This document shows, in pieces, positions 50 to 50,045 of a stretch of 60,000 bases of DNA; positions within the stretch are counted from its first letter, which is position 1, and the number at the start of each line of letters is the position of its first letter. Both the position numbers and the translations under genes were made by a program. Source of the stretch: Mobula hypostoma (Eukaryota); NCBI RefSeq assembly GCF_963921235.1, contig NC_086097.1, forward strand, positions 56,794,001 to 56,854,000. Reading direction: 5' to 3'. The notes beneath the pieces are model-generated. The model made no database searches. It worked only from the letters and a program-made list of their open reading frames with translations, and was not told where the DNA came from.

Positions 50-965
50 TCATCAACTCCTCCCCACACGCAAAAAAACAAATCGCCCAAATGGCAACGA
101 GGACATCAACCCCTGCTCAAATAACAGGCAAATGGCAACGAGGACATCAACCTCCCCCACGCAAAACAAACAAATCGTGCAAATGGCAACGAGGACATCA
201 ACCTCCCCCACGCAAAACAAACAAATCACCCAAATGGCAACGAGGACATCAACCTCCCCCACGCAAAACAAACAAATCGCCCAAATGGCAACGAGGACAT
301 CAACCTCCCCCACGCAAAACAAACAAATCGTGCAAATGGCAACGAGGACATCAACCTCCCCCACGCAAAACAAACAAATCGCCCAAATGGCAACGAGGAC
401 ATCAACCCCTGCTCAAATAACAGGCAAATGGCAACGAGGACATCAACCTCCCCCACGCAAAACAAACAAATCGTGCAAATGGCAACGAGGACATCAACCC
501 CCCCACGCAAAACAAACAAATCGCCCAAATGGCAACGAGGACATCAACCTCCCCCACGCAAAACAAACAAATCGCCCAAATGGCAACGAGGACATCAACA
601 CCCCCACGCAAAACAAACAAATCGTGCAAATGGCAACGAGGACATCAACCTCCCCCACGCAAAACAAACAAATCGTGCAAATGGCAACGAGGACATCAAC
701 CTCCCCCACGCAAAACAAACAAATCGCCCAAATGGCAACGAGGACATCAACCTCCCCCACGCAAAACAAACAAATCGTGCAAATGGCAACGAGGACATCA
801 ACCTCCCCCACGCAAAACAAACAAATCGCCCAAATGGCAACGAGGACATCAACCTCCCCCACGCAAAACAAACAAATCGTGCAAATGGCAACGAGGACAT
901 CAACCTCCCCCACGCAAAACAAACAAATCGTGCAAATGGCAACGAGGACATCAACCTCCCCCACT
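50..965. repeat. Minisatellite, about 18 units of 51 bp (CAAATGGCAACGAGGACATCAACCTCCCCCACGCAAAACAAACAAATCG[TG/CC]) with two 41-bp variant units
   Basis: Unit starts read at 88, 129, 180, 231, 282, 333, 384, 425 ... 933; near-identical copies; explains all overlapping ORFs in 53-1017. Confidence 0.97.
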
Positions 966-16900: not shown

Positions 16901-17230
16901 ATAATATTCCATTTCTACCATCCTTAATTGCCCATGAAAGGTGGTGGCAAGTTGCCTTCTTAAACTCTTGCCTTTCTTTGTGCTGGGCCATGGAGTGTTA
17001 GAGCACAATGAGTGAGTAGCTGCAGTATATTTTTGTCGATAGTATACACTGCAGTATATACAGAGAAGGAAACAAACTCTCAAGGGATAAAATCAGAGCT
17101 TAGCTTTCCATTCAAGTCGGGTTTATTAGCATATGTGCAAATATGGTGAGGTACAGGGACAACGAAGAATTTGCTTGAAGCAGTATCACAAGCATTTAGG
17201 TTCAGACAACAGTAAATATTCATACATTAA

Positions 17231-17428
17231 TATACTGTATGGCCTGCAGTATAATAAGGGCCTACTTTATGTTGTAGGGACACGTCGTTGCATGCACTAT
17301 TAGGCACGTATTGATCTGTATGTGTGTGCTGAGTTCGGTTTCTGTCAGTAAAGAACCATGAACCTTTACTCCCGTCTCCAGTGTATTTATTAGTAGCATT
17401 GCTGTGTAACCAGGCCACATACACAACA
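17231..17428 (+). repeat. 5' LTR (198 bp)
   Basis: Aligns end to end with 20684-20907; followed by the PBS. Confidence 0.95.
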
Positions 17429-17431
17429 AAT

Positions 17432-17441
17432 TGGTGACGAG
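17432..17441 (+). promoter_or_regulatory. Primer-binding site TGGTGACGAG (tRNA-Ser(GCT)-like, 1 mismatch)
   Basis: 3 nt after the 5' LTR; near-complement of the CCA 3' end of tRNA-Ser(GCT), which would give TGGCGACGAG. Confidence 0.75.
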
Positions 17442-18910
17442 TTTAATGAACCTACATGGTATTGGAACGCCGTGTTTTAGTTGATAACGACACTCAGAAG
17501 AAGAGCGCGAGGAACGAGCCAAGGAGTGGGAGAAGGAGGCAGAGCGAGGCCATGGGTCTGAAAGGAAGCAGGAGCACTGCTGGGGTTGGGAATGTCGGGA
17601 GACTAAGAGACACAGTCGGAGCCGCAGCACGTCAAGGCGAGACCACAGCCAGCGCTGACCCCAGGGACTGAGGGTCTGCCTGCCCCAGAAGGGAGATAAA
17701 AAGGAACGACACACGCACATCTAGACGGAGTGCGCTCGTGGCGCTAGCAAAAAGTACACGTGAGTCAGAAAGGAAAATAAGGGGAGAACAGGGCTTAATT
17801 AACATAACAAGGATGGTGATGATTGGAACCATTACAGCATTTGATAGTGGCATTGAAGACTGGGCAACTTACATTGAAAGAGTGGAGTTATATTGTGAGG
17901 TTAACGATGTTAAGGATGAAAAGAAAGCCAGCGTCTTACTCAGTATTATGGGAGCAAAAACATACGGCCTGCTGTGGAGCTTGTTAACTCCTGAAAAGCC
18001 AGCTGACAAAACGTTCAAGCGAATAGTAGACACTCCAACAACATTTAAACCTCAAACCACTGGTCATTGCTGAAAGATTTAAATTTCACAATCGGAATCA
18101 GAGTAAAAATGAAAGCACTTCTGAATATTGTGCTGAATTGCACAAACTATCAGAACATTGTCAATTTGGAGCTGGTTTATCAGACGCATTGAGGGACAGA
18201 TTAGTGAGTGGCATGCACTGTGAAACCACCCGGAAAAAGCTTCTGTGTGAAAGAGACCTTACATTTGAGAAAGCGCTAAACATTGCAATATCATTGGAAA
18301 CAGCAGCACGGGGTGCTTCAGAGATACAACAAAAATCTCTGGAATATGCTACGAATAAAATGTCACTGAACAGAAATGAAGGAAAGAAACGTTACCGTTG
18401 TGGGAACATGTCACATGACCCTGAGGACTGTTGGTTTAAAGACAAAGAATGCAGAAGCTGTGGCAAATGGGGCCACATTGGCAGAGTATGCAAAGCTAGT
18501 CAACAGCAGAAAAAGGTCAAAATACAGAGAAACAAGAAACCCCAGAAGGGAAAATACAACAATGTACACAAAATGAAAGAAAGCAGTTCTGATGAAAACG
18601 ACTCAGACAAAAGTGAATTGTCCTGTCTGCAACTTCACAGCGTGAAAGAGACAGATGATCGAAGAGTAATATGGATCACTCCACAAGTGGCAGGCGTGAG
18701 ACTGAAAATGGAGTTGGACACAGGCTCAGCTTTAACAGTGATCTCTGTACACGACTACAAACGACCGTTTTCTCACATACCTCTGAAACGAACTAAACTA
18801 CTGCTAAAGACTTAAACACGAGGAATTCTGCAGATGCTGGAAATTCAAGCAACACACATCAAAGTTGCTGGTGAACGCAGCAAACCAGGCAGCATCTCTA
18901 GGAAGAGGTA

Positions 18911-18954
18911 CAGTCGACATTTCGGGCTGAGATCCTTCGTCAGGACTAACTGAA
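18911..18954 (-). ncRNA. Second, mutated minimal hammerhead ribozyme
   Basis: Reverse complement reads CTGACGA-AGGATCTCAGCCC-GAAAT-GTC, with stem II and III substitutions. Confidence 0.55.
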
Positions 18955-19077
18955 CTCCCATCGAAGAGAAGATTTAAACTTCTTCAGTGTAGGCACCACA
19001 GAAGAGGCTGTCTTCTCCTATCATTTTGGATCTCCCCCTCCCCCTCCCACTTTGAAATCTCTTACTAGCTCTTCCTT

Positions 19078-19119
19078 CAGTTAGTCCTGACGAAGGGTCT
19101 CGGCCCGAAACGTCAACTG
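19078..19119 (+). ncRNA. Minimal type I hammerhead ribozyme (Penelope-type)
   Basis: CTGACGA-AGGGTCTCGGCCC-GAAAC-GTC core; CAGTT/AACTG stem I. Confidence 0.75.
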
Positions 19120-19393
19120 TACCTCTTCCTAGAGATGCTGCCCGGCCTGCTGCGTTCACCAGCAACTTTGATGTGTGTTGCTAAAGACTTACATAGGACA
19201 GAAAGTGCACCCCAAAGGTAAAATTAAAGTGATAGTGACCTACAGAGACAAAACACAGCAGCTGAACGTCTATGTACTGAAAAATGGAGGATCACCATTG
19301 CTGGGACGTGAATGGCTCAGGAAAATCCAGTTGGATTAGCACACCATCAAGGCACCAGATGTGTCAACAAAGGAGGGCAGCTCAGCGGGGAAG

Positions 19394-20329
19394 ATGTCCG
19401 CAGCTCTCCACTCACCCATTGTCGACTATTACAACGATGAGGAAGAGCTAGAGAGCATCGACAATGAGGACAAACGCAGTATCCATGGCCGCGACTCAAA
19501 TGAAGATACAGAGGATGCAAGGAAGACAGATATTGCCAATAAGTAGGATGATGAAGACTACCTGGAAGTAAAAGAGCAGATGTACCAGGAGAAGTTGACG
19601 TCTCTCAAAAGACAGCTACAGCAGTTACAGGAAGGCACTTTACAGGAGTACCAGAAAAGGATGAAGAAACTAGGTCAACAACACATGGAAAGAATATGAA
19701 ATGCTGAGCTTTTTCTGCAACTGGAGACAGAACAAGTTGAAAGGAATTATATTAAAGAGAAGAAAGCAGCAGTGAAGGAATCTGAAAATAAAAAGATTGA
19801 GTTAGAAGAAAAGAAAAAGATGATTGAGAATGAGAGGCTAACAATGGAACTCACAGGAGATTCTGTGGAGGTAAAGCCAATAATAACTAGGAAACTAAGG
19901 AGGAGACCTAATGACCCTGCTCCAATTACAGACAAAAGATGAAAACCTGCACCTGTGCAGTTAAATTACTTGTTAGCAGATGAACAGATAATGGAAGATC
20001 TTCGAACTCTCAATAAGCTTAAATCTCCGAAAAGACCAGCACCTCCGTCTTCTCCTGAGCATCTTCCCAGCACTCCTGCTGAATCACCAGCACAAAGATA
20101 TGAAGCACAAATAGAAGATGGAAAGTTATATTGCGATAAGAGATGGTATCATAAAGGTCAGGCTATCTATTTGGAATCTAGGGAGAATACGAAGATTGGC
20201 TGTGTAATTAGCTCAGTTGGAACAAATGAGATATTGCTAAGGAAGACAAGTGAAAGCACAAAGATGCATATATATGTAGGACAGCTGCACAGAGGAGTCT
20301 TCATTATACGGAGGCGATCTACTGCCTAG
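19394..20329 (+). pseudogene. SUDS3: Processed (intronless) SUDS3 retrocopy, Sin3 histone deacetylase corepressor complex component SDS3
   Basis: MSAA...[34 protein letters not shown]...[10 protein letters not shown]...[20 protein letters not shown]...IIRRRSTA*; one frame throughout, with stops at 19544, 19697 and 19940; 3'UTR with ATTAAA at 20415. Confidence 0.95.
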
Positions 20330-20435
20330 AACTCTTAGCAAGTTGGAGGCGCACATCTTCTTAACTCCCTATGCTCATAGGTCAACTTTTCATGACTTTT
20401 ATATGGAAATCTGTATTAAAACAAACAAATTTATT

Positions 20436-20491
20436 GACAGACGTTACCCAGAGAGGCAGAGTATACCCCCCTCCCGAGACTTGAGTTATAA
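20436..20491 (+). pseudogene. Residual Gypsy integrase C-terminal tail
   Basis: Translates DRRYPERQSIPP..RLEL*, resembling the RRYP.R.R.PP.RL ending of Gypsy pol. Confidence 0.65.
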
Positions 20492-20670
20492 ATGAGTCTT
20501 AGACTAAAAGTAAAAAAAAGGCTTGTTATAATGATATTATTATGTTACTTTGTTGTGATTTGATATTATTAAGTTACTAAGTAAACAAATTGTAGGTGTT
20601 TGTATGTTAAGGGTAGACGTATTTGTTTAGCTTAATGACCCAGTAAAAAAAGTTGATACACTATTAAAAT

Positions 20671-20683
20671 AAAAGGGGAGGAG
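20671..20683 (+). promoter_or_regulatory. Polypurine tract AAAAGGGGAGGAG
   Basis: Immediately precedes the TG start of the 3' LTR. Confidence 0.9.
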
Positions 20684-20907
20684 TGCACTGTATGGCCTAC
20701 AGTTATAATAAGGGACTACTTTATGTTGTAGGGATATGTCACTGCATGCGCTAATAGGCACGTATTGAGCATGTGCTATTAGGTGTGTATTGATCTGTAC
20801 GTGTATGCTGAGTTTGGTTTCTGCCAGTAAAGAACCATGAACCTTAGCTCCCATCTCCAGTGCTTTTATTAATAGCATTGTTGTGTAACCAAGCCACATA
20901 CACAACA
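20684..20907 (+). repeat. 3' LTR (224 bp, includes an extra 25-bp tandem unit)
   Basis: TG...CA termini; matches the 5' LTR. Confidence 0.95.
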
Positions 20908-21299
20908 ATTAAAGTTATGCAAGTTATACTACATTATACAAGGCAATGAAAGAAATTGAGGAAAACAAGACATTGGTGCAACAAAAAACAGTTAAGTCCA
21001 CAGTAGTACAAGAGATGTTATGTGGCTAAGGTGTGGTTCGTTTATGGAGTCATTGAACAGCAATATTCCTGTGACATACTTATAACATGCCCTCTGCTAA
21101 GCAATCATCACTATCTCACTGATCCAATTCGAGTTATATTTTTTTAAAAATGAAGCCATTTCGTTCGATAAGAAGTGCACTTGTATAAACATAAAATTGC
21201 AAGTTACAGCTAAACTTCGAGGAAAATCAATACATTGCTGGTCCTGTACATCCTTCACAAAATAACGCACTGCATTCAACCATCCAACAACCTGCAGCC

Positions 21300-21760
21300 A
21301 TCAGCAGGTTGAACTTGACACTCCAAAACTCCCGTTCCACGTGACGCTCCACACTCGCCTCAGATGCAAAGAGAAGCTGATCTTTTAGTCTACATTAGTG
21401 CCTGAAAAAGTCGAAAATTCTCGATAAGTTAATCAAAAAAATTCATTGAGAAAGAACGCACACAAAGAGGAGAAGCTCTTGAGCAGTAGTGGAAAACGCA
21501 ATCAGGCAGTAGGGAAGACAGATCAAGCGGAGGCTGAGGGTCCTGGGTGGGGTGGAGGACGGGGCCTACAGGTTCAGGCGGCTGCTGTTGTGGACGGTGT
21601 CTGCGGACCGGGGTGGGAGCGCAGCTGCAGCATGCCGCTGTTTGAAGGGCTGGGCACCGGGGGCGAGAAGACGGCTGTAGTGATCGATCTGGGAGCCGCA
21701 TACACAAAGTGAGTCGCGGGATGCACGGAGGGTGGGCGCCTGTGGGTTAACACCGAATGG
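21300..21760 (+). promoter_or_regulatory. ACTR10 promoter / CpG-rich first-exon region
   Basis: GC- and CpG-rich relative to the flanks; CACGTGACG E-box/CRE-like motif at about 21338. Confidence 0.6.
21632..21708 (+). CDS. ACTR10: ACTR10 coding exon 1
   Basis: [25 protein letters not shown](K); donor GTGAGT. Confidence 0.96.
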
Positions 21761-25329: not shown

Positions 25330-25487
25330 AATTGAAGTTGCTGGTGAACGCAGCAGGCCAGGCAGCATCTCTAGGAAGAGGTACAGTCGACGTTTCACGC
25401 CGAGCCCCTTCGACGGCCTGCTGCGTTCACCAGCAACTTTGATGTGTGTTGCTTGAATTTCCAGCATCTGCAGAATTTCTCGTGTTG
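25330..25487. mobile_element. Short inverted Penelope pseudo-LTR fragment
   Basis: Same sequence family as 18815-19178; flanked by a TGGCACCATAATTG duplication. Confidence 0.8.
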
Positions 25488-44178: not shown

Positions 44179-47100
44179 CAAGGGGTGATTGATAAGTTTG
44201 TGGCCTAAGGTAGAAGGAGATGAGTTATTAACTTCAAACTTTTTGCGTTATCCCTCAAAGAGTTGAACTGCACCTGCATGTAATGAGAGCTTCTTGGACC
44301 TCCAGGTGGTCCACAGCAGGGTTCAGGTGGTCCACAGCAGGGGTGATTGATAAGTTTGTGGCCTACGGTAGAAGGAAATGAGTTGTACAGCTCTCCTTAC
44401 ATGTACGTGCAGATCAAATCCGAGTGATTATACAGAAAGTTTGAAGTTAATAACTCATCTCCTTCTACCTTAGGCCACGAACTTATCAATCACCCCTGAT
44501 GAATTATTACCATAGAACACTACAGCATGGAAAATAGGTCATTCAGCCCTTCTAGTCTGTGCTGAAACATTATTCTACTAGTCCCATTGACCTGCACCCA
44601 GTCCATAACCCTCCAGACCTCTCCCATCCATGTATCTATCCAATTTATTCTTAAAACTTAAGAGTGAGCCCGCATTTACCATGTCAGCTGGCAGCTCATT
44701 CCACACTCCCACCACTCTCTGAGTGAAGAAGTTTCCCCTAGTATTCCCCCTAAACCTTTCCCCTTTCACCCTAAAGCCATGTCCTCTCGTATTTATCTCT
44801 CCTAATCTAAGTGGAAAGAGCCTATTCACATTTACTGTCTATACCCCTCATAATTTTGTAAACCTCTGTCAAATCTCCCCTCATTCTTCTACGCTGCAAG
44901 GAATAAAGTCCTAACCTGTTCAGTCTTTCCCAGTAACTGAACTCCTGAAGACCTGGCAACATCCAAGTAAATCTTCTCTGCACACTTTCAATCTTACTGA
45001 TATCCTTCCTATAGTTAGGTGACCAGAACTGCACACAATACTCCAAATTTGGCCTCACCAATGTTTTATACAACCTCCCCATAACATCCCAACTCCTATA
45101 CTCAATACTTTTGATTTATGAATGCCAGGATGCCAAAAGCCGCCTTTACCACCCTGTTCACCTGTGACGCCACTTTCAGGGAATTATGGATCTGAACTTC
45201 CAGATCTCTTTGTTCCTCCGCACTCCTCAGTCCCCTACCATTTACTGTGTATGTCCTACTTTGATTTGTCCTTCCAAAATGCAACACCTCACCCTTGTCT
45301 GCATTAAATTCCATCTGCCATTTTCTGCCCCATTTCTCCTGTTGGTCCAGATCCCTCTACAAGTTTTGAAAGCTTCCTCGCTGTCCACAACACCTCCAAT
45401 CTTAGTGTCATCAGCAAACTTGCTGATCCAATTTACCACATTATTATCTAAATTATTGATATAGACAACAAACAGCAATGGTCCCAGCACAGATCCTTGA
45501 GGCACACCACTAGTCACAGGCCTCCAGTCTGATAAGCAATCATCCACTACCACTCTCTGTCTTCTCCCACACAGCCAATTTCGAATCCAGTTTACAACCT
45601 GTCCATGGATACCTAGTGTCTGAACCTTCTGAACTAACCTGCCATGTGGGACCTTGTCAAAGGCCAAGTCCATGTAGACAACATCCACAGCCTTTCCTTC
45701 GTCTACTTTCTTGGTAACCTCCTCGAAAAACTCTACAAGATTCGTTAAGCACGATCTACCACGCACAAAGCCATGCTGACTATCCTTAATCAGCCCTTGG
45801 CTGTCCAAATACTTGTATATCCGATCTCTCAGAACACCTTCCAACAATTTACCTACTACTGATGTCAGGCTCACTGGCCTGTAATTACCTGGTTTACTTT
45901 TGGAGCCTTTTTTAAGCAACAGAACAACATGAGCTACCCTCCAATCCTCCGGCACCATACCCGTGGCTAAGGACATTTTAAACATTTCTGCCAGGGCCCC
46001 TGCAGTTTCTACACTAGTCTCTCTCAAGGTCCGAGGAAATATCATGTCAGGCCCGGAGGATTTATCTACCTTTATTCATTGTAAGGCAGCAAGCACCTCC
46101 TCGTCTTTAATCTCTATATGTTCCATGACACTGCTGCTTGTTTCCCTTCCTTCCATATACGCTATGCTAGTTTCCTGAGTAAATACCGATGCAAAAAAAT
46201 TGTTTAAGATCTCCCCCATGTCGTGAAGCTCCACACATGGACAACCACTTTGATCTTTTAGGGGACCAATTTTGTCCCTTACTATCCTTTTACTCTTAAT
46301 ATACTTGTAGAAACCCTTCGGGTTTACCTTCACATTATCTGCCAAAGCAACCTCATGTCTTCTTTTTGCCTTCCTGATTTCCTTCTTTAGTATTTTCTTA
46401 CATTTTCTATACTCTTCAAGTACCTCATTTGTTCCTTGTTGCCTGTCTCTCTTTACACCTGCTTATGCATCTAGCAGGTGTACACTATACACCTCTAGTG
46501 TATAGAGGTGTATACCGCTCTCTTTTTCTTAACCAGATCGCCAATATCCCTTGAAAACCAAGGTTCCCTATGCATGTTAACTTTGCCTTTAATCCTGGCA
46601 GAAACATGCAAACTCTGCACTCTCAAAATTTCGCCTTTGAATACCTTCTACGTACTGAACACGTCCTTGCCAGAAAACAACTTATCCCAATCAACTCTTC
46701 CTAGATCCTTTCTCATTTCCTCAAAATTGGCCATTCTCCAATTTAGAACCTTAACTCGAGGACCAGACCTATCCTTATCCATAATTAACTTGAAACTGGA
46801 CATTATGTTCACTGGACCCAAAATGTTCGCCTACACATACTTCTGTCACCTGACCTGTCTGGTTCCCTAATAGGAGATCAAGTATTGCATCCTCTCTGGT
46901 TGGTACCTCTATATATTGATTTAGAAAACTGCTCTGAACACATTTGACAAACTCCACGTCACCTAACCCTTTCACGGTGTGGGAGTCCCAGTCAATATGT
47001 GTAAATTTAAAATACCCTACTATTACAACTTGCTGTTTCTTATTTCAGTCTGCTACCTCTCTACAGATTTGCTCCTCAAATTCTCTCTGACTATTGGGCG

Positions 47101-47635
47101 GTCTATAATACAACCCTATTGGTGTAGTCACCTCTTTCCCGTTCCTCAGCTCTACCCATAGACAAGCCCTCCAGGCTGTCCTGTCTATGCACAGCTGTGA
47201 TATTCTCCCTGACTAGTAATGCCACTCCTCCCCCTTTTATCCCTTCCCCTCTGTCACGTCTGAAACAACGGAACCCCGGAAGATTAAGCTGCCAGTCCTG
47301 CCCCTCCTGCAACCGTCTCACTAATAGCAATAATGTTGTAATCCCACGTGTCAATCCACACCCTGATTAATTGATGAGTTATTAACTTCCAACTTTCTGC
47401 ATAATCACTCTGCATGTAACGAGAGCTGTATAGCTCATCTCCTTCTACCTTAGGCCACAAATTTATCAATCACCCCTGCTGTGGGCACTTTCTGGAGGTC
47501 CAAGATCCGTATGCTCCACGACCGCTGGACTAAGTGTGTAAATGTAAGAGGAGACTATGTTGTAAAATAAATGTGCTAGGTTTTCTAAAATTGACTTCTT
47601 CTACCTGAGGCCACAAATGTGTCAATCACCCCTCG
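44179..47635. mobile_element. mariner-derived non-autonomous element split by a CR1 insertion
   Basis: TA TSDs; TIRs C(A/G)AGGGGTGATTGATAAGTTTGTGGCCT at both ends, plus internal TIR copies. Confidence 0.85.
44510..47371 (-). mobile_element. CR1 LINE, 5'-truncated ORF2 (endonuclease + RT) with frameshifts
   Basis: ORFs 45242-46045 and neighbours; about 13-bp TSD TGATGA(A/G)TTATTA at 44497 and 47372. Confidence 0.93.
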
Positions 47636-48017
47636 TACATTGTAGTGAACCAAAACTTTGCATAAATGATTTTTAACTACTTGCACATCAAAGGCTGAAT
47701 ATAATAATAAAAGTCCAATAAGGTGGATTTTGGAGCTGGACTAGCAGATTTTCCTGAATATTAGATGTTATTTCAACCCTTTGTAATTTTATTGCTTTTT
47801 TAGATGTTAAAGTAAGTTCTCCAGTAAACCAGGCATATGGGAAGGGTATGGAGGACTTCAGTCTGGGTGAATGCAAAGGGTGTATGAAACCTGGGCTTCA
47901 GTAAGTGGGAAAGGAGTGTGATAAACATTACCTATTGAGCTGGGTATCAAATCACTGCACAGCAGATTACTAGAGTTGCTATAAATAATATTTTTGTGAC
48001 TCTTTTAACACTCAAAA

Positions 48018-50045
48018 TAGAAACCATGGAACCATAGAAACTACAGCACAGAAACAGGCCTTTTGGCCCTTCTTGGCTGTGCCGAACCATTTTCTGCCTA
48101 GTCCCACTGACCTGCACACGGACCATATCCCTCCATACACCTCCCATCCATGTATCTGTCCAATTTATTCTTAAATGTTAAAAAAGAACCCGCATTTACC
48201 ACCTCGTCTGGCAGCTCATTCCATACTCCCACCACTCTCTGTGTGAAGAAGCTCCCCCTAATGTTCCCTTTAAACTTTTCCCCCCTCACCCTTAACCCAT
48301 GTCCTCTGGTTTTTTTCTCCCCTTGCCTCAGTAGAAAAAGCCTGCTTGCATTCACTCTATCTATACCCATCATAATTTTATATACCTCTATCAAATCTCC
48401 CCTCATTCTTCTACGCTCCAGGGAATAAAGTCCTATCCTATTCAACCTTTCTCTGTAACTGAGTTTCTCAAGTCCCGGCAACATCCTTGTAAACCTTCTC
48501 TGCACTCTTTCAACCTTATTTATATCCTTCCTGTAATTTGGTGACCAAAACTGAACACAATACTCCAGATTCGGCCTCACCAATGCCTTATACAACCTCA
48601 TCATAACATTCCAGCTCTTATACTCAATACTACAATTAATAAAGGCCAATGTACCAAAAGCTCTCTTTACGACCCTATCTACCTGTGACGCCACTTTTAG
48701 GGAATTTTGTATCTGTATTCCCAGATCCCTCTGTTCCACTGCACCCCTCAGTGCCTTACCATTAACCCTGTACGTTCTACCTTGGTTTGTCCTTCCAACG
48801 TGCAATACCTCACACTTGTCTCCATCTGCCATTTTTCAGCCCATTTTTCCAGCTGGTCGAAGTCCCTCTGCAGGCTCTGGAAACCTTCCTGTCTACTACA
48901 CCTCCAATCTTTGTATCATCAGCAAATTTGCTGATCCAATTTACCACATTATCATCCAGATCATTGATGTAGATGACAAATAACAATGGACTCAGCACTG
49001 ATCCCTGTGGCACACCACTAGTCGCAGGCCTCCACTCGGAGAAGCAATTCTCTACTACCACTGTTTGGTTTCTTCCATTGAGCTAATGTCTAATCCAATT
49101 TACCACCTCTCCATGTATACCTAGCGACTGAATTTTCCTAACTAACCTCCCATGCGGGACCTTGTCAAAGGCCTTACTGAAGTCCATGTAGACAATATCC
49201 ACTGCCTTCCCTTCATCCACTTTCCTGGTAACCTCCTCGAAAAACCCTAATAGATTGGTCAAACATGACCTACCACGCACAAAGCCATGTTGACTCTCCC
49301 TAATAAGTCCCTGTCTATCCAAATGCTTGTAGATTCTGTCTCTTAGTACTCCCTCCAATAACTTACCTACTACCGACGTTATATTTACTGGCCTATAATT
49401 TCCCGGATTACTTTTCGATCCTTTCTTAAACAACGGAACAACATGAACCACTCTCCAATCCTCCGGCACCTCACCTGTAGACAACGACATTTTAAATATT
49501 TCTGCCAGGGCCCCTGCAATTTCAACATTAGTCTCCTTCAAGGTCCAAGGGAACACCCTGTCAGGTCCCGGGGATTTATCCACTTTAATTTTCCTCAAGA
49601 CAGCAAGGACCTCCTCCTTTTCGATCTGTACAGTTTCCATGATCTCACTACTTGTTTCCCTTAATTCCATAGACTTCATGCTAGTTTCCTTAGTAAATAC
49701 AGACGCAAAAAACCTAGTTAAGATCTCCCCCATTTCCTTTGGTTCCGCACGTAGCCAACCACTCTGATCTTCAAGAGGACCAAGTTTATCCCTTACAATC
49801 CTTTTGCTCTTAATATACCTGTAAAAGCTCTTTGGATTATCCTTCGCTTTGACTGCCAAGGCAACCTCATGTCTTCTTTTAGCCCTCCTGATTTCTTTCT
49901 TAAGTATTTTCTTGCACTTCTTATACTCCTCAAGCACCTTATTTACTCCCTGCTTCCTATACATGTCATACAACTCCCTCTTCTTCTTTATCAGAGTTGC
50001 ACTATCCCTTGAGAACCAAGGTTCCTTATTCCTATTCACTTTGCA
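48018..50045 (-). mobile_element. Young CR1 LINE, 5'-truncated RT and 3' end
   Basis: ORFs 49083-50099, 48810-49061 and 48098-48832 with YMDFSKAFDKVPH, PQGSVL, KFADD. Confidence 0.95.

What the first reader, a model, noticed from the sequence alone, without database searches (positions are those of the whole stretch)
17813..20329. Captured SUDS3 is fused in frame to Gag-protease (gag-onc-like polyprotein)
After removing the Penelope insertion plus one TSD copy (18815-19191), the frame reads ...KLLLKT-YIGQKVHPKG...LLGREWLRKIQLD*HTIKAPDVSTKEGSSAGK-MSAALHS... and continues in one frame to the SUDS3 stop. Codon starts 19193, 19301, 19394 and 19955 share a frame. The TAG after IQLD is probably a mutated TGG. 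The ancestral element would therefore have encoded one Gag-PR-SUDS3 polyprotein with SUDS3 where RT normally sits, potentially released by the element's own protease and packaged in particles. Speculation: delivering or titrating a Sin3/HDAC subunit could act as an anti-silencing function. Caveat: an in-frame join has a 1-in-3 chance by accident.
Basis: partly seen in the sequence, partly recalled or inferred. Interest (0 to 1): 0.8.

Follow-up and report, generated by a model that had tools for sequence, protein, structure and literature searches.

The report
Gypsy family carrying in-frame SUDS3 passenger
This is one dead copy of a jumping-gene family with hundreds of copies in a ray-like fish, whose copying enzymes are replaced by a spliced copy of the host gene SUDS3 joined in frame to the element's own capsid and protease genes, but the SUDS3 cargo likely rode along as a passenger rather than serving as a tool.

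Summary
Observation confirmed at family level. Window 17231-20907 is a Gypsy LTR element (two LTRs, 5-bp target duplication). Its RT/RNaseH/integrase are replaced by all 12 spliced exons of host SUDS3, joined at a 10-nt overlap with an RT-bearing donor family of the same genome. It has roughly 300-400 copies. Counted column by column across copies, gag-protease (402 codons) runs in frame into SUDS3; this copy's stops, gag frameshift and 377-bp insertion are its own damage.

The functional reading is not supported. Private changes are neutral (omega 1.00). Lineage-linked SUDS3 changes are 7 replacement : 1 silent, against 24:28 in gag-protease. 128 of 130 copies lack 8 coiled-coil residues. 42 of 100 sampled copies belong to lineages that cut SUDS3 with backwards RNF213 and still multiplied. 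The founding branch cannot be polarised (2 replacement : 12 silent versus host), so an early functional phase stays open (about 12%).

Known kind: LTR-mediated retrocopy (Tan 2016), unusually amplified. The scan already noted this family, its in-frame join and the RNF213 piece on other DNA.

The parts
17226..17230 (+). 5' target-site duplication (5 bp)
   Evidence: identical 5-mer at 20908-20912
17231..17428 (+). 5' LTR
   Evidence: aligns to 20684-20907; shared with RT-bearing donor copies
17432..17441 (+). primer-binding site (tRNA-Ser type, assignment recalled)
   Evidence: TGG-starting 10-mer 3 nt after the LTR end; tRNA identity not tested
17813..18814 (+). gag (with zinc-knuckle region) and N-terminal part of aspartic protease (DTG motif); frameshift near 18030-18070 in this copy
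   Evidence: 59-61% identical to single-ORF Gypsy polyproteins P0122/P0123; ORFs
18815..19191 (.). copy-specific 377-bp palindromic repeat insertion including one copy of a 13-bp duplication
   Evidence: absent from 29 of 29 other loci
19192..19381 (+). protease C-terminal part (LLGREWL) and start of the protease-RT linker; premature stop at 19337 in this copy
   Evidence: 90 of 90 RT-hit loci match it; 82 matches end exactly at 19381
19372..19381 (+). 5' template-switch overlap (10 nt) between donor pol linker and host SUDS3 5'UTR
   Evidence: host match starts at 19372, donor match ends at 19381
19394..20329 (+). spliced SUDS3 coding sequence (311 codons; host 319), three premature stops in this copy
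   Evidence: 12 host exons at G000:C78 8,439,661-8,380,525 tile it without introns; Pfam Sds3
19797..19798 (+). site of family-wide 24-nt in-frame deletion (host residues about 136-143, inside the coiled coil), between short direct repeats
   Evidence: 128 of 130 copies; 4ZQA matches host residues 80-163
20330..20442 (+). host SUDS3 3'UTR (short subtype; a long subtype keeps about 230 nt more)
20436..20442 (+). 3' switch overlap (7 nt) back to donor sequence
   Evidence: host, window and donors L162/L178 compared
20443..20683 (+). donor 3' region ending in polypurine tract (20671-20683)
20684..20907 (+). 3' LTR (TG...CA)
20908..20912 (+). 3' target-site duplication

Best explanation
This is a decayed copy of a Gypsy LTR family whose RT, RNase H and integrase are replaced by the spliced host SUDS3 message in frame with gag-protease, likely captured by reverse-transcriptase template switching, likely spread with enzymes from intact relatives, and with SUDS3 likely a neutral passenger. 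Shown: the structure, the 10-nt and 7-nt overlaps at the two joins, the donor family, the copy number range, the open frame at family level, neutral decay, and serial second capture. Inferred: co-packaging of SUDS3 mRNA in a donor particle, double template switch, mobilisation in trans, repeated recombination with donors, and translation of the fusion while the family was active. The in-frame join is most simply the 1-in-3 outcome of a switch into a stop-free 22-nt 5'UTR stretch.
For: Host gene with 12 exons over 59 kb, copy intronless. Donor: 48 of 60 long loci carry RT+RNaseH+integrase, while 128 of 129 family loci carry none. Overlaps at both joins. Copies: 40 of 40 scored, 149 of 150; 51 with both LTRs, mean LTR-LTR difference 0.084, 0.052 without CpG, lowest 0.022; perfect 5-nt target duplication in 29 of 51. 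Cargo drift: low-frequency non-CpG omega 1.00 in 130 copies. Lineage-linked non-CpG SUDS3 variants 7N:1S in 163 copies, neutral expectation 73% N; P=0.32 under neutrality, 0.018 under omega 0.3. Positive control: shared gag-protease variants 24N:28S in 72 copies, P=5e-5 against neutrality; 48 of 54 such variants also segregate in donors, which points to recombination with helpers. Coiled-coil deletion in 128 of 130. Antisense RNF213 interrupts SUDS3 at codons about 226-233 in 42 of 100 sampled copies; these frames end 19 or 48 codons after LKSP (28 of 31, 24 of 38). No copy has a stop-free frame of 700 codons (max 560 in 162).
Against: The lineage-linked count is small (8); the direct Fisher test against gag-protease is borderline (P=0.053, or 0.12 with the counts). 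Host-versus-family differences are 2N:12S. About 6.6 non-CpG silent changes are expected on the host branch alone (my arithmetic), but they could not be polarised with an outgroup. Three near-fixed changes at host CpG sites are all silent (3 of 18 silent-class versus 0 of 38 other). The join and both large lineage-level deletions (24 nt, 57 nt) keep the frame, whereas 40 of 160 singleton indels do. No lineage-level stop was found in codons 1-225. One 2-nt deletion is seen in 3 copies. The RNF213 cuts fall just after the Sin3-binding helix (host 195-219). Family-only shared gag-protease variants are 1N:5S (P=0.007), so the element's own frame may have been used.
Confidence: 0.72

Rival explanations
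1. The frame was kept for the element's sake, not for SUDS3 function. Read-through to a stop near the 3' LTR would stabilise the RNA (no long 3'UTR for nonsense-mediated decay) or help cis packaging by the element's own Gag, so in-frame captures multiply better whatever they encode.
For: Join, 24-nt and 57-nt deletions all in frame while residues drift. Family-only gag-protease variants 1N:5S. An unrelated 4E-T capture family in the same genome also has an in-frame count of majority columns from Gypsy linker to 4E-T (267 columns, 0 of 89 stop-majority).
Against: RNF213 lineages stop early and leave about 1-1.5 kb untranslated, yet make up 42 of 100 copies. The 24-nt deletion lies between short repeats in codon register, which favours in-frame loss without selection. 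The 4E-T family is old: only 3 of 13 aligned rows (11 distinct copies) are individually in frame.
Confidence: 0.15
2. Functional gag-onc-like phase: the fusion, or SUDS3 released by the protease, acted as a dominant-negative or decoy Sin3/HDAC subunit that eased silencing of the element and drove its spread, at least early.
For: Full coding sequence captured in frame after the protease. 2N:12S host-family difference and three silent-only CpG fixations. All lineages keep the coiled coil (minus 8 residues) and the Sin3-binding helix. Several hundred copies.
Against: 7N:1S lineage-linked changes; other cargoes with no silencing role (4E-T) multiplied in the same way in this genome. A helper-dependent element gains little exclusive benefit from a diffusible factor (inference). 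The protease cleavage site relative to the join is unknown.
Confidence: 0.12
3. Single processed pseudogene inserted by a LINE into a resident Gypsy copy, or an assembly artefact.
For: LINE-type retrocopies are the usual route in vertebrates (preprint 10.64898/2026.06.26.734816, passages).
Against: Identical 5' join in 102 of 130 copies (HSP start -21), donor sequence replaced not split, no poly(A) or duplication round the cDNA, dispersed copies with their own target duplications.
Confidence: 0.01

Closest known systems
LTR-mediated retrocopies / pseudo-LTR retrotransposons of animals (Tan et al. 2016, PMC5131818; abstract and passages read)
   Same: Spliced host mRNA replaces part of the internal ORF, microsimilarity at switch points, both LTRs kept, multi-gene chimeras, secondary retroposition, frequent in-frame longest ORF.
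   Different: Hundreds of copies in a vertebrate rather than one to a few; whole coding sequence fused behind gag-protease; serial second capture that itself multiplied.
Maize Bs1 (as described in PMC5131818 and PMC13317346, passages)
   Same: LTR element with captured pieces of several host genes forming a hybrid frame; copies share switch points.
   Different: Bs1 has 1-5 copies and is reported transcribed and translated; here about 300-400 decayed copies, no protein evidence.
Transducing retroviruses with gag-onc fusions (recalled, no call)
   Same: Host coding sequence in frame with gag in a defective, helper-dependent genome.
   Different: No env and no room for one in 3.3 kb; no sign of selection on the cargo; donor is a Gypsy retrotransposon.
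TE-encoded anti-silencing factors such as VANC/KIU of Vandal MULEs (PMC13317346, passages)
   Same: Captured host chromatin-related domain carried by a mobile element.
   Different: Those are conserved and shown to act; SUDS3 here drifts neutrally and is dispensable in large sublineages.
SUDS3 as a top retrocopy parent in cartilaginous fishes (bioRxiv 10.64898/2026.06.26.734816; 12 passages read; supplements closed)
   Same: Same gene flagged as prolific.
   Different: The passages seen tie retrocopy numbers to non-LTR elements and do not mention an LTR carrier; this family likely explains the SUDS3 count.

Membership tests
LTR-mediated retrocopy (Tan 2016) | Intronless host mRNA flanked by discontinuous LTR-retrotransposon parts | tested here: met
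   12 host exons tile 19372-20442; donor sequence on both sides
LTR-mediated retrocopy (Tan 2016) | Part of the internal ORF is replaced, not merely interrupted | tested here: met
   RT/RNaseH/integrase absent in 128 of 129 family loci, all present in 48 of 60 donor loci
LTR-mediated retrocopy (Tan 2016) | Microsimilarity at switch points | tested here: met
   10 nt at 5' join, 7 nt at 3' join
LTR-mediated retrocopy (Tan 2016) | Both LTRs and integrase-type target duplication, no poly(A) | tested here: met
LTR-mediated retrocopy (Tan 2016) | Secondary retroposition with shared switch points | tested here: met
   same 5' join in 102 of 130 copies; 130-nt GT..AG segment of the RNF213 piece present in 29 and absent in 37 copies, as if spliced from element RNA
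LTR-mediated retrocopy (Tan 2016) | Co-transcription from the LTR | tested here: inconclusive
   contigs bridge the join in 2 of 4 laid runs, but no run is on record as RNA
Ty3/Gypsy single-ORF element (donor) | Gag-PR-RT-RNaseH-integrase order in one polyprotein | tested here: met
   closest intact relatives are 1310-aa K02A2.6-like polyproteins; donors align along P0123; met for the donor, the cargo element lacks the last three
gag-onc transducing retrovirus | Host coding sequence in frame with gag | tested here: met
gag-onc transducing retrovirus | Cargo protein expressed and selected | tested here: not met
   7N:1S lineage-linked, omega 1.00 private; founding branch unresolved
gag-onc transducing retrovirus | Infectious spread with a helper's env | not tested
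   no env in the element; donors were compared only with an env-less polyprotein
TE-encoded anti-silencing factor | Conservation of the factor in active lineages | tested here: not met
TE-encoded anti-silencing factor | Demonstrated relief of silencing | not testable with these tools
   needs experiments

The most novel reading that the evidence does not exclude
A vertebrate Gypsy element captured a whole Sin3/HDAC subunit in frame behind its protease and, in its founding phase, used a coiled-coil-shortened SUDS3 that keeps the Sin3-binding helix as a decoy against host silencing, the first retrotransposon-borne anti-silencing protein taken whole from a host corepressor complex.
Probability: 0.12. 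Interest if true: 0.8.

Novelty: new member of a known kind. Interest (0 to 1): 0.42.

Why it matters
It is a large, clean vertebrate case of LTR template-switch gene capture with donor, host gene, switch points and sublineages all in one genome. It warns that retrocopy counts and automatic 'SDS3-like' gene calls in rays are inflated by a mobile family rather than by independent LINE-made copies. With other capture families in the same genome it makes a general question testable: do amplified captures favour in-frame sense joins? If the cargo had been selected it would be a new anti-silencing strategy, but the data here do not show that.

Tried and rejected
Expression: no RNA holder listed. 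Four runs guessed to be RNA were laid as contigs. One contig each in X3 and X8 bridges the protease-SUDS3 join, and loose ends show donor and RNF213 joins, but these cannot show transcription; the X3 contig mixes host-like and family features and may be an assembly chimera. In X3, contigs lack the host letter at 19669, 20068, 20164 and 20185, which hints that 4 of the 12 silent differences arose on the host side; I treat this as weak and did not count it. Looking for basal copies that carry several host alleles together found none. A whole-element multiple alignment was too gappy and used wrong exon borders; it was discarded and replaced by projection on the host mRNA. A plain count threshold for 'shared' SUDS3 variants (23N:6S) includes recurrent mutations, so linkage-defined variants are used instead. 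Rfam found nothing in 17200-21000; a hammerhead-like stretch in the insertion folded no better than shuffles (z -1.24). SLU7 and PWI-domain searches showed no amplified family with those domains. Pfam missed gag and protease in the broken ORFs. No structure or complex prediction was run: a coiled-coil pair would pass by likeness to solved structures. Literature: five full-text searches returned no paper describing this element; subscription journals, Repbase and Dfam were not searchable, and preprint supplements were closed.

Full report
What is in the window. Bases 17231-20907 form an LTR element: LTRs at 17231-17428 and 20684-20907, a 5-bp target duplication, a primer-binding site at 17432 and a polypurine tract before 20684. 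Inside lie gag and protease, 59-61% identical to single-ORF Gypsy polyproteins of about 1310 residues, then SUDS3 (Pfam Sds3; best relatives are ray SDS3 proteins, 83-85% identical). This copy is dead: a gag frameshift near 18030-18070, a 377-bp palindromic insertion with a 13-bp duplication, a stop at 19337 and three stops in SUDS3.

Host gene and donor. A 45-residue query found one exact, exon-sized match at G000:C78. The gene has 12 exons over about 59 kb, one intron of AT-AC type, and encodes 319 residues. The exons tile window 19372-20442 with no intron, from 22 nt before the ATG into the 3'UTR. An RT-bearing family shares the LTR, gag and protease: 90 of 90 loci found by an RT-linker query match the window's protease end (mean 90% identity), 82 of them ending at 19381, and 48 of 60 long loci hold RT, RNase H and integrase. 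Host match from 19372 and donor match to 19381 give a 10-nt overlap. The 3' join of this subtype has a 7-nt overlap. This is the template-switch signature described by Tan et al. 2016 (PMC5131818, abstract and passages).

Family. All 40 scored candidates of 1184 matched the SUDS3 part; 149 of 150 scored of 391 were family copies. Thirty of the 60 loci from two RNF213-piece searches were already among those 150 (my tally), which points to roughly 300-400 copies. In 51 copies with both LTRs the LTRs differ by 8.4% (5.2% without CpG, lowest 2.2%), so the family is old and shows no young copy; 29 of 51 have a perfect 5-nt target duplication. Annotated 'SDS3-like' proteins of two Mobula species carry the same 8-residue gap, so the family predates their split.

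Is the join in frame? Yes at family level. In 28 other copies the codon after IQLD is sense in 25 and the distance to the SUDS3 ATG is a multiple of three in 27. In 72 copies with unbroken alignment (of 129) the two ATGs are 402 codon columns apart; the one stop-majority column is a decaying CpG codon, also decayed in donors. No SUDS3 codon column of 312 has a stop as commonest codon. The source frame was therefore about 713 codons. No natural copy among 162 has it whole; the longest stop-free stretch is 560.

Was the cargo selected? Low-frequency non-CpG variants, which mostly arose after insertion, give omega 1.00 for SUDS3 (130 copies) and 0.97 for gag-protease. Variants shared by 8 or more of 72 copies in gag-protease are 24 replacement to 28 silent, against 73% replacement expected (P=5e-5), so the method sees purifying selection where it is expected. 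Most such variants also segregate in donors (48 of 54), which suggests repeated recombination with helpers; the six family-only ones are 1:5. In SUDS3, variants linked to a structural sublineage or to each other (163 copies; CpG columns and codons 134-146 and 224-234 left out) are 7 replacement to 1 silent: compatible with neutrality (P=0.32), unlikely under omega 0.3 (P=0.018), though the direct contrast with gag-protease is borderline (P=0.053). 128 of 130 copies lack 24 nt inside the dimerisation coiled coil (domain role from PMC8800102, passages), and 15 of 163 lack a further 57 nt.

Second capture. 42 of 100 copies fetched carry a backwards piece of RNF213 around its RING finger. One type is inserted at SUDS3 nt 668-677 with a 10-nt repeat; the other replaces the last third of SUDS3. 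All 33 further RNF213-piece loci also carry SUDS3. The frame ends 19 or 48 codons after LKSP, removing the capped Tudor domain. A 130-nt segment with GT (24 of 29) and AG (24 of 29) ends on the element's strand is missing in 37 copies, as expected if it was spliced out of element RNA. These lineages multiplied without a full SUDS3.

What speaks for the other side. Host and family differ at 2 replacement and 12 silent sites, which would look like purifying selection in a plain Ka/Ks. But the host gene kept collecting silent changes after the capture: about 6.6 non-CpG ones are expected from the copies' own rate, and 6 are seen. Three near-fixed changes at host CpG sites are all silent. No outgroup DNA was available. 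The join and both large deletions keep the frame while only 40 of 160 singleton indels do, and the RNF213 cuts leave the Sin3-binding helix (host 195-219). A separate, older 4E-T capture family, first seen in another note of the scan, also has an in-frame majority-column count across its join, though only 3 of 13 rows are individually in frame. These points keep selection on the frame (0.15) and an early functional phase (0.12) alive.

Expression. No run is on record as RNA; contigs bridge the join in two of four laid runs, which shows the join exists in other samples but not that it is transcribed.

Comparison and verdict. It meets the tested defining features of LTR-mediated retrocopies and works like a helper-dependent gag-onc genome, but fails the selection test for an anti-silencing factor. 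Five searches found no paper on this element; a 2026 preprint lists SUDS3 among the top retrocopy parents of cartilaginous fishes without an LTR link in the passages read. Earlier notes of this scan describe the same family, the in-frame join and the RNF213 piece on other DNA; they were read after my own analysis and are not independent support. New member of a known kind, unusually amplified; interest 0.42.

Noticed in passing
window 21632-21709 (+): First coding exon of ACTR10/Arp11 (26 residues, E 3.5e-9) in a GC-rich stretch; the element ends about 720 bp upstream of its ATG on the same strand.
   Followed up: partly
G000:C78 8,398,855-8,395,736 (host SUDS3 intron 7): Intron with AT...AC ends and ATATCC donor, a minor-spliceosome type (label recalled); correctly spliced out in the captured copy.
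   Followed up: partly
L148 (G000:C58:4446876-4451876): The one family copy seen that keeps most of the 24 nt missing elsewhere, yet belongs to the RNF213 lineage; possibly a later recombination with host mRNA.
   Followed up: partly
L304-L323: A separate, older Gypsy family with captured 4E-T mRNA (60 matches); not the same donor; join appears in frame by column count.
   Followed up: partly
window 18815-19191; also 25335-25486: Palindromic high-copy repeat with CTGACGA...GAAAC core resembling Penelope-type hammerheads (recalled); no Rfam match.
   Followed up: partly
L162, L169, L172, L178: Internally deleted donor copies without host cargo, showing other non-autonomous derivatives.
   Followed up: no
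window 128-964: Tandem array of 51-bp units, 16.6 copies, 93% matches.
   Followed up: no
window 44532-49479: Two LINE-like stretches about 3.5 kb apart, 80-85% alike.
   Followed up: no
runs X1 and X3, loose ends at 20363: A further RNF213-to-SUDS3 3'UTR join type seen in contigs of two coded organisms.
   Followed up: no
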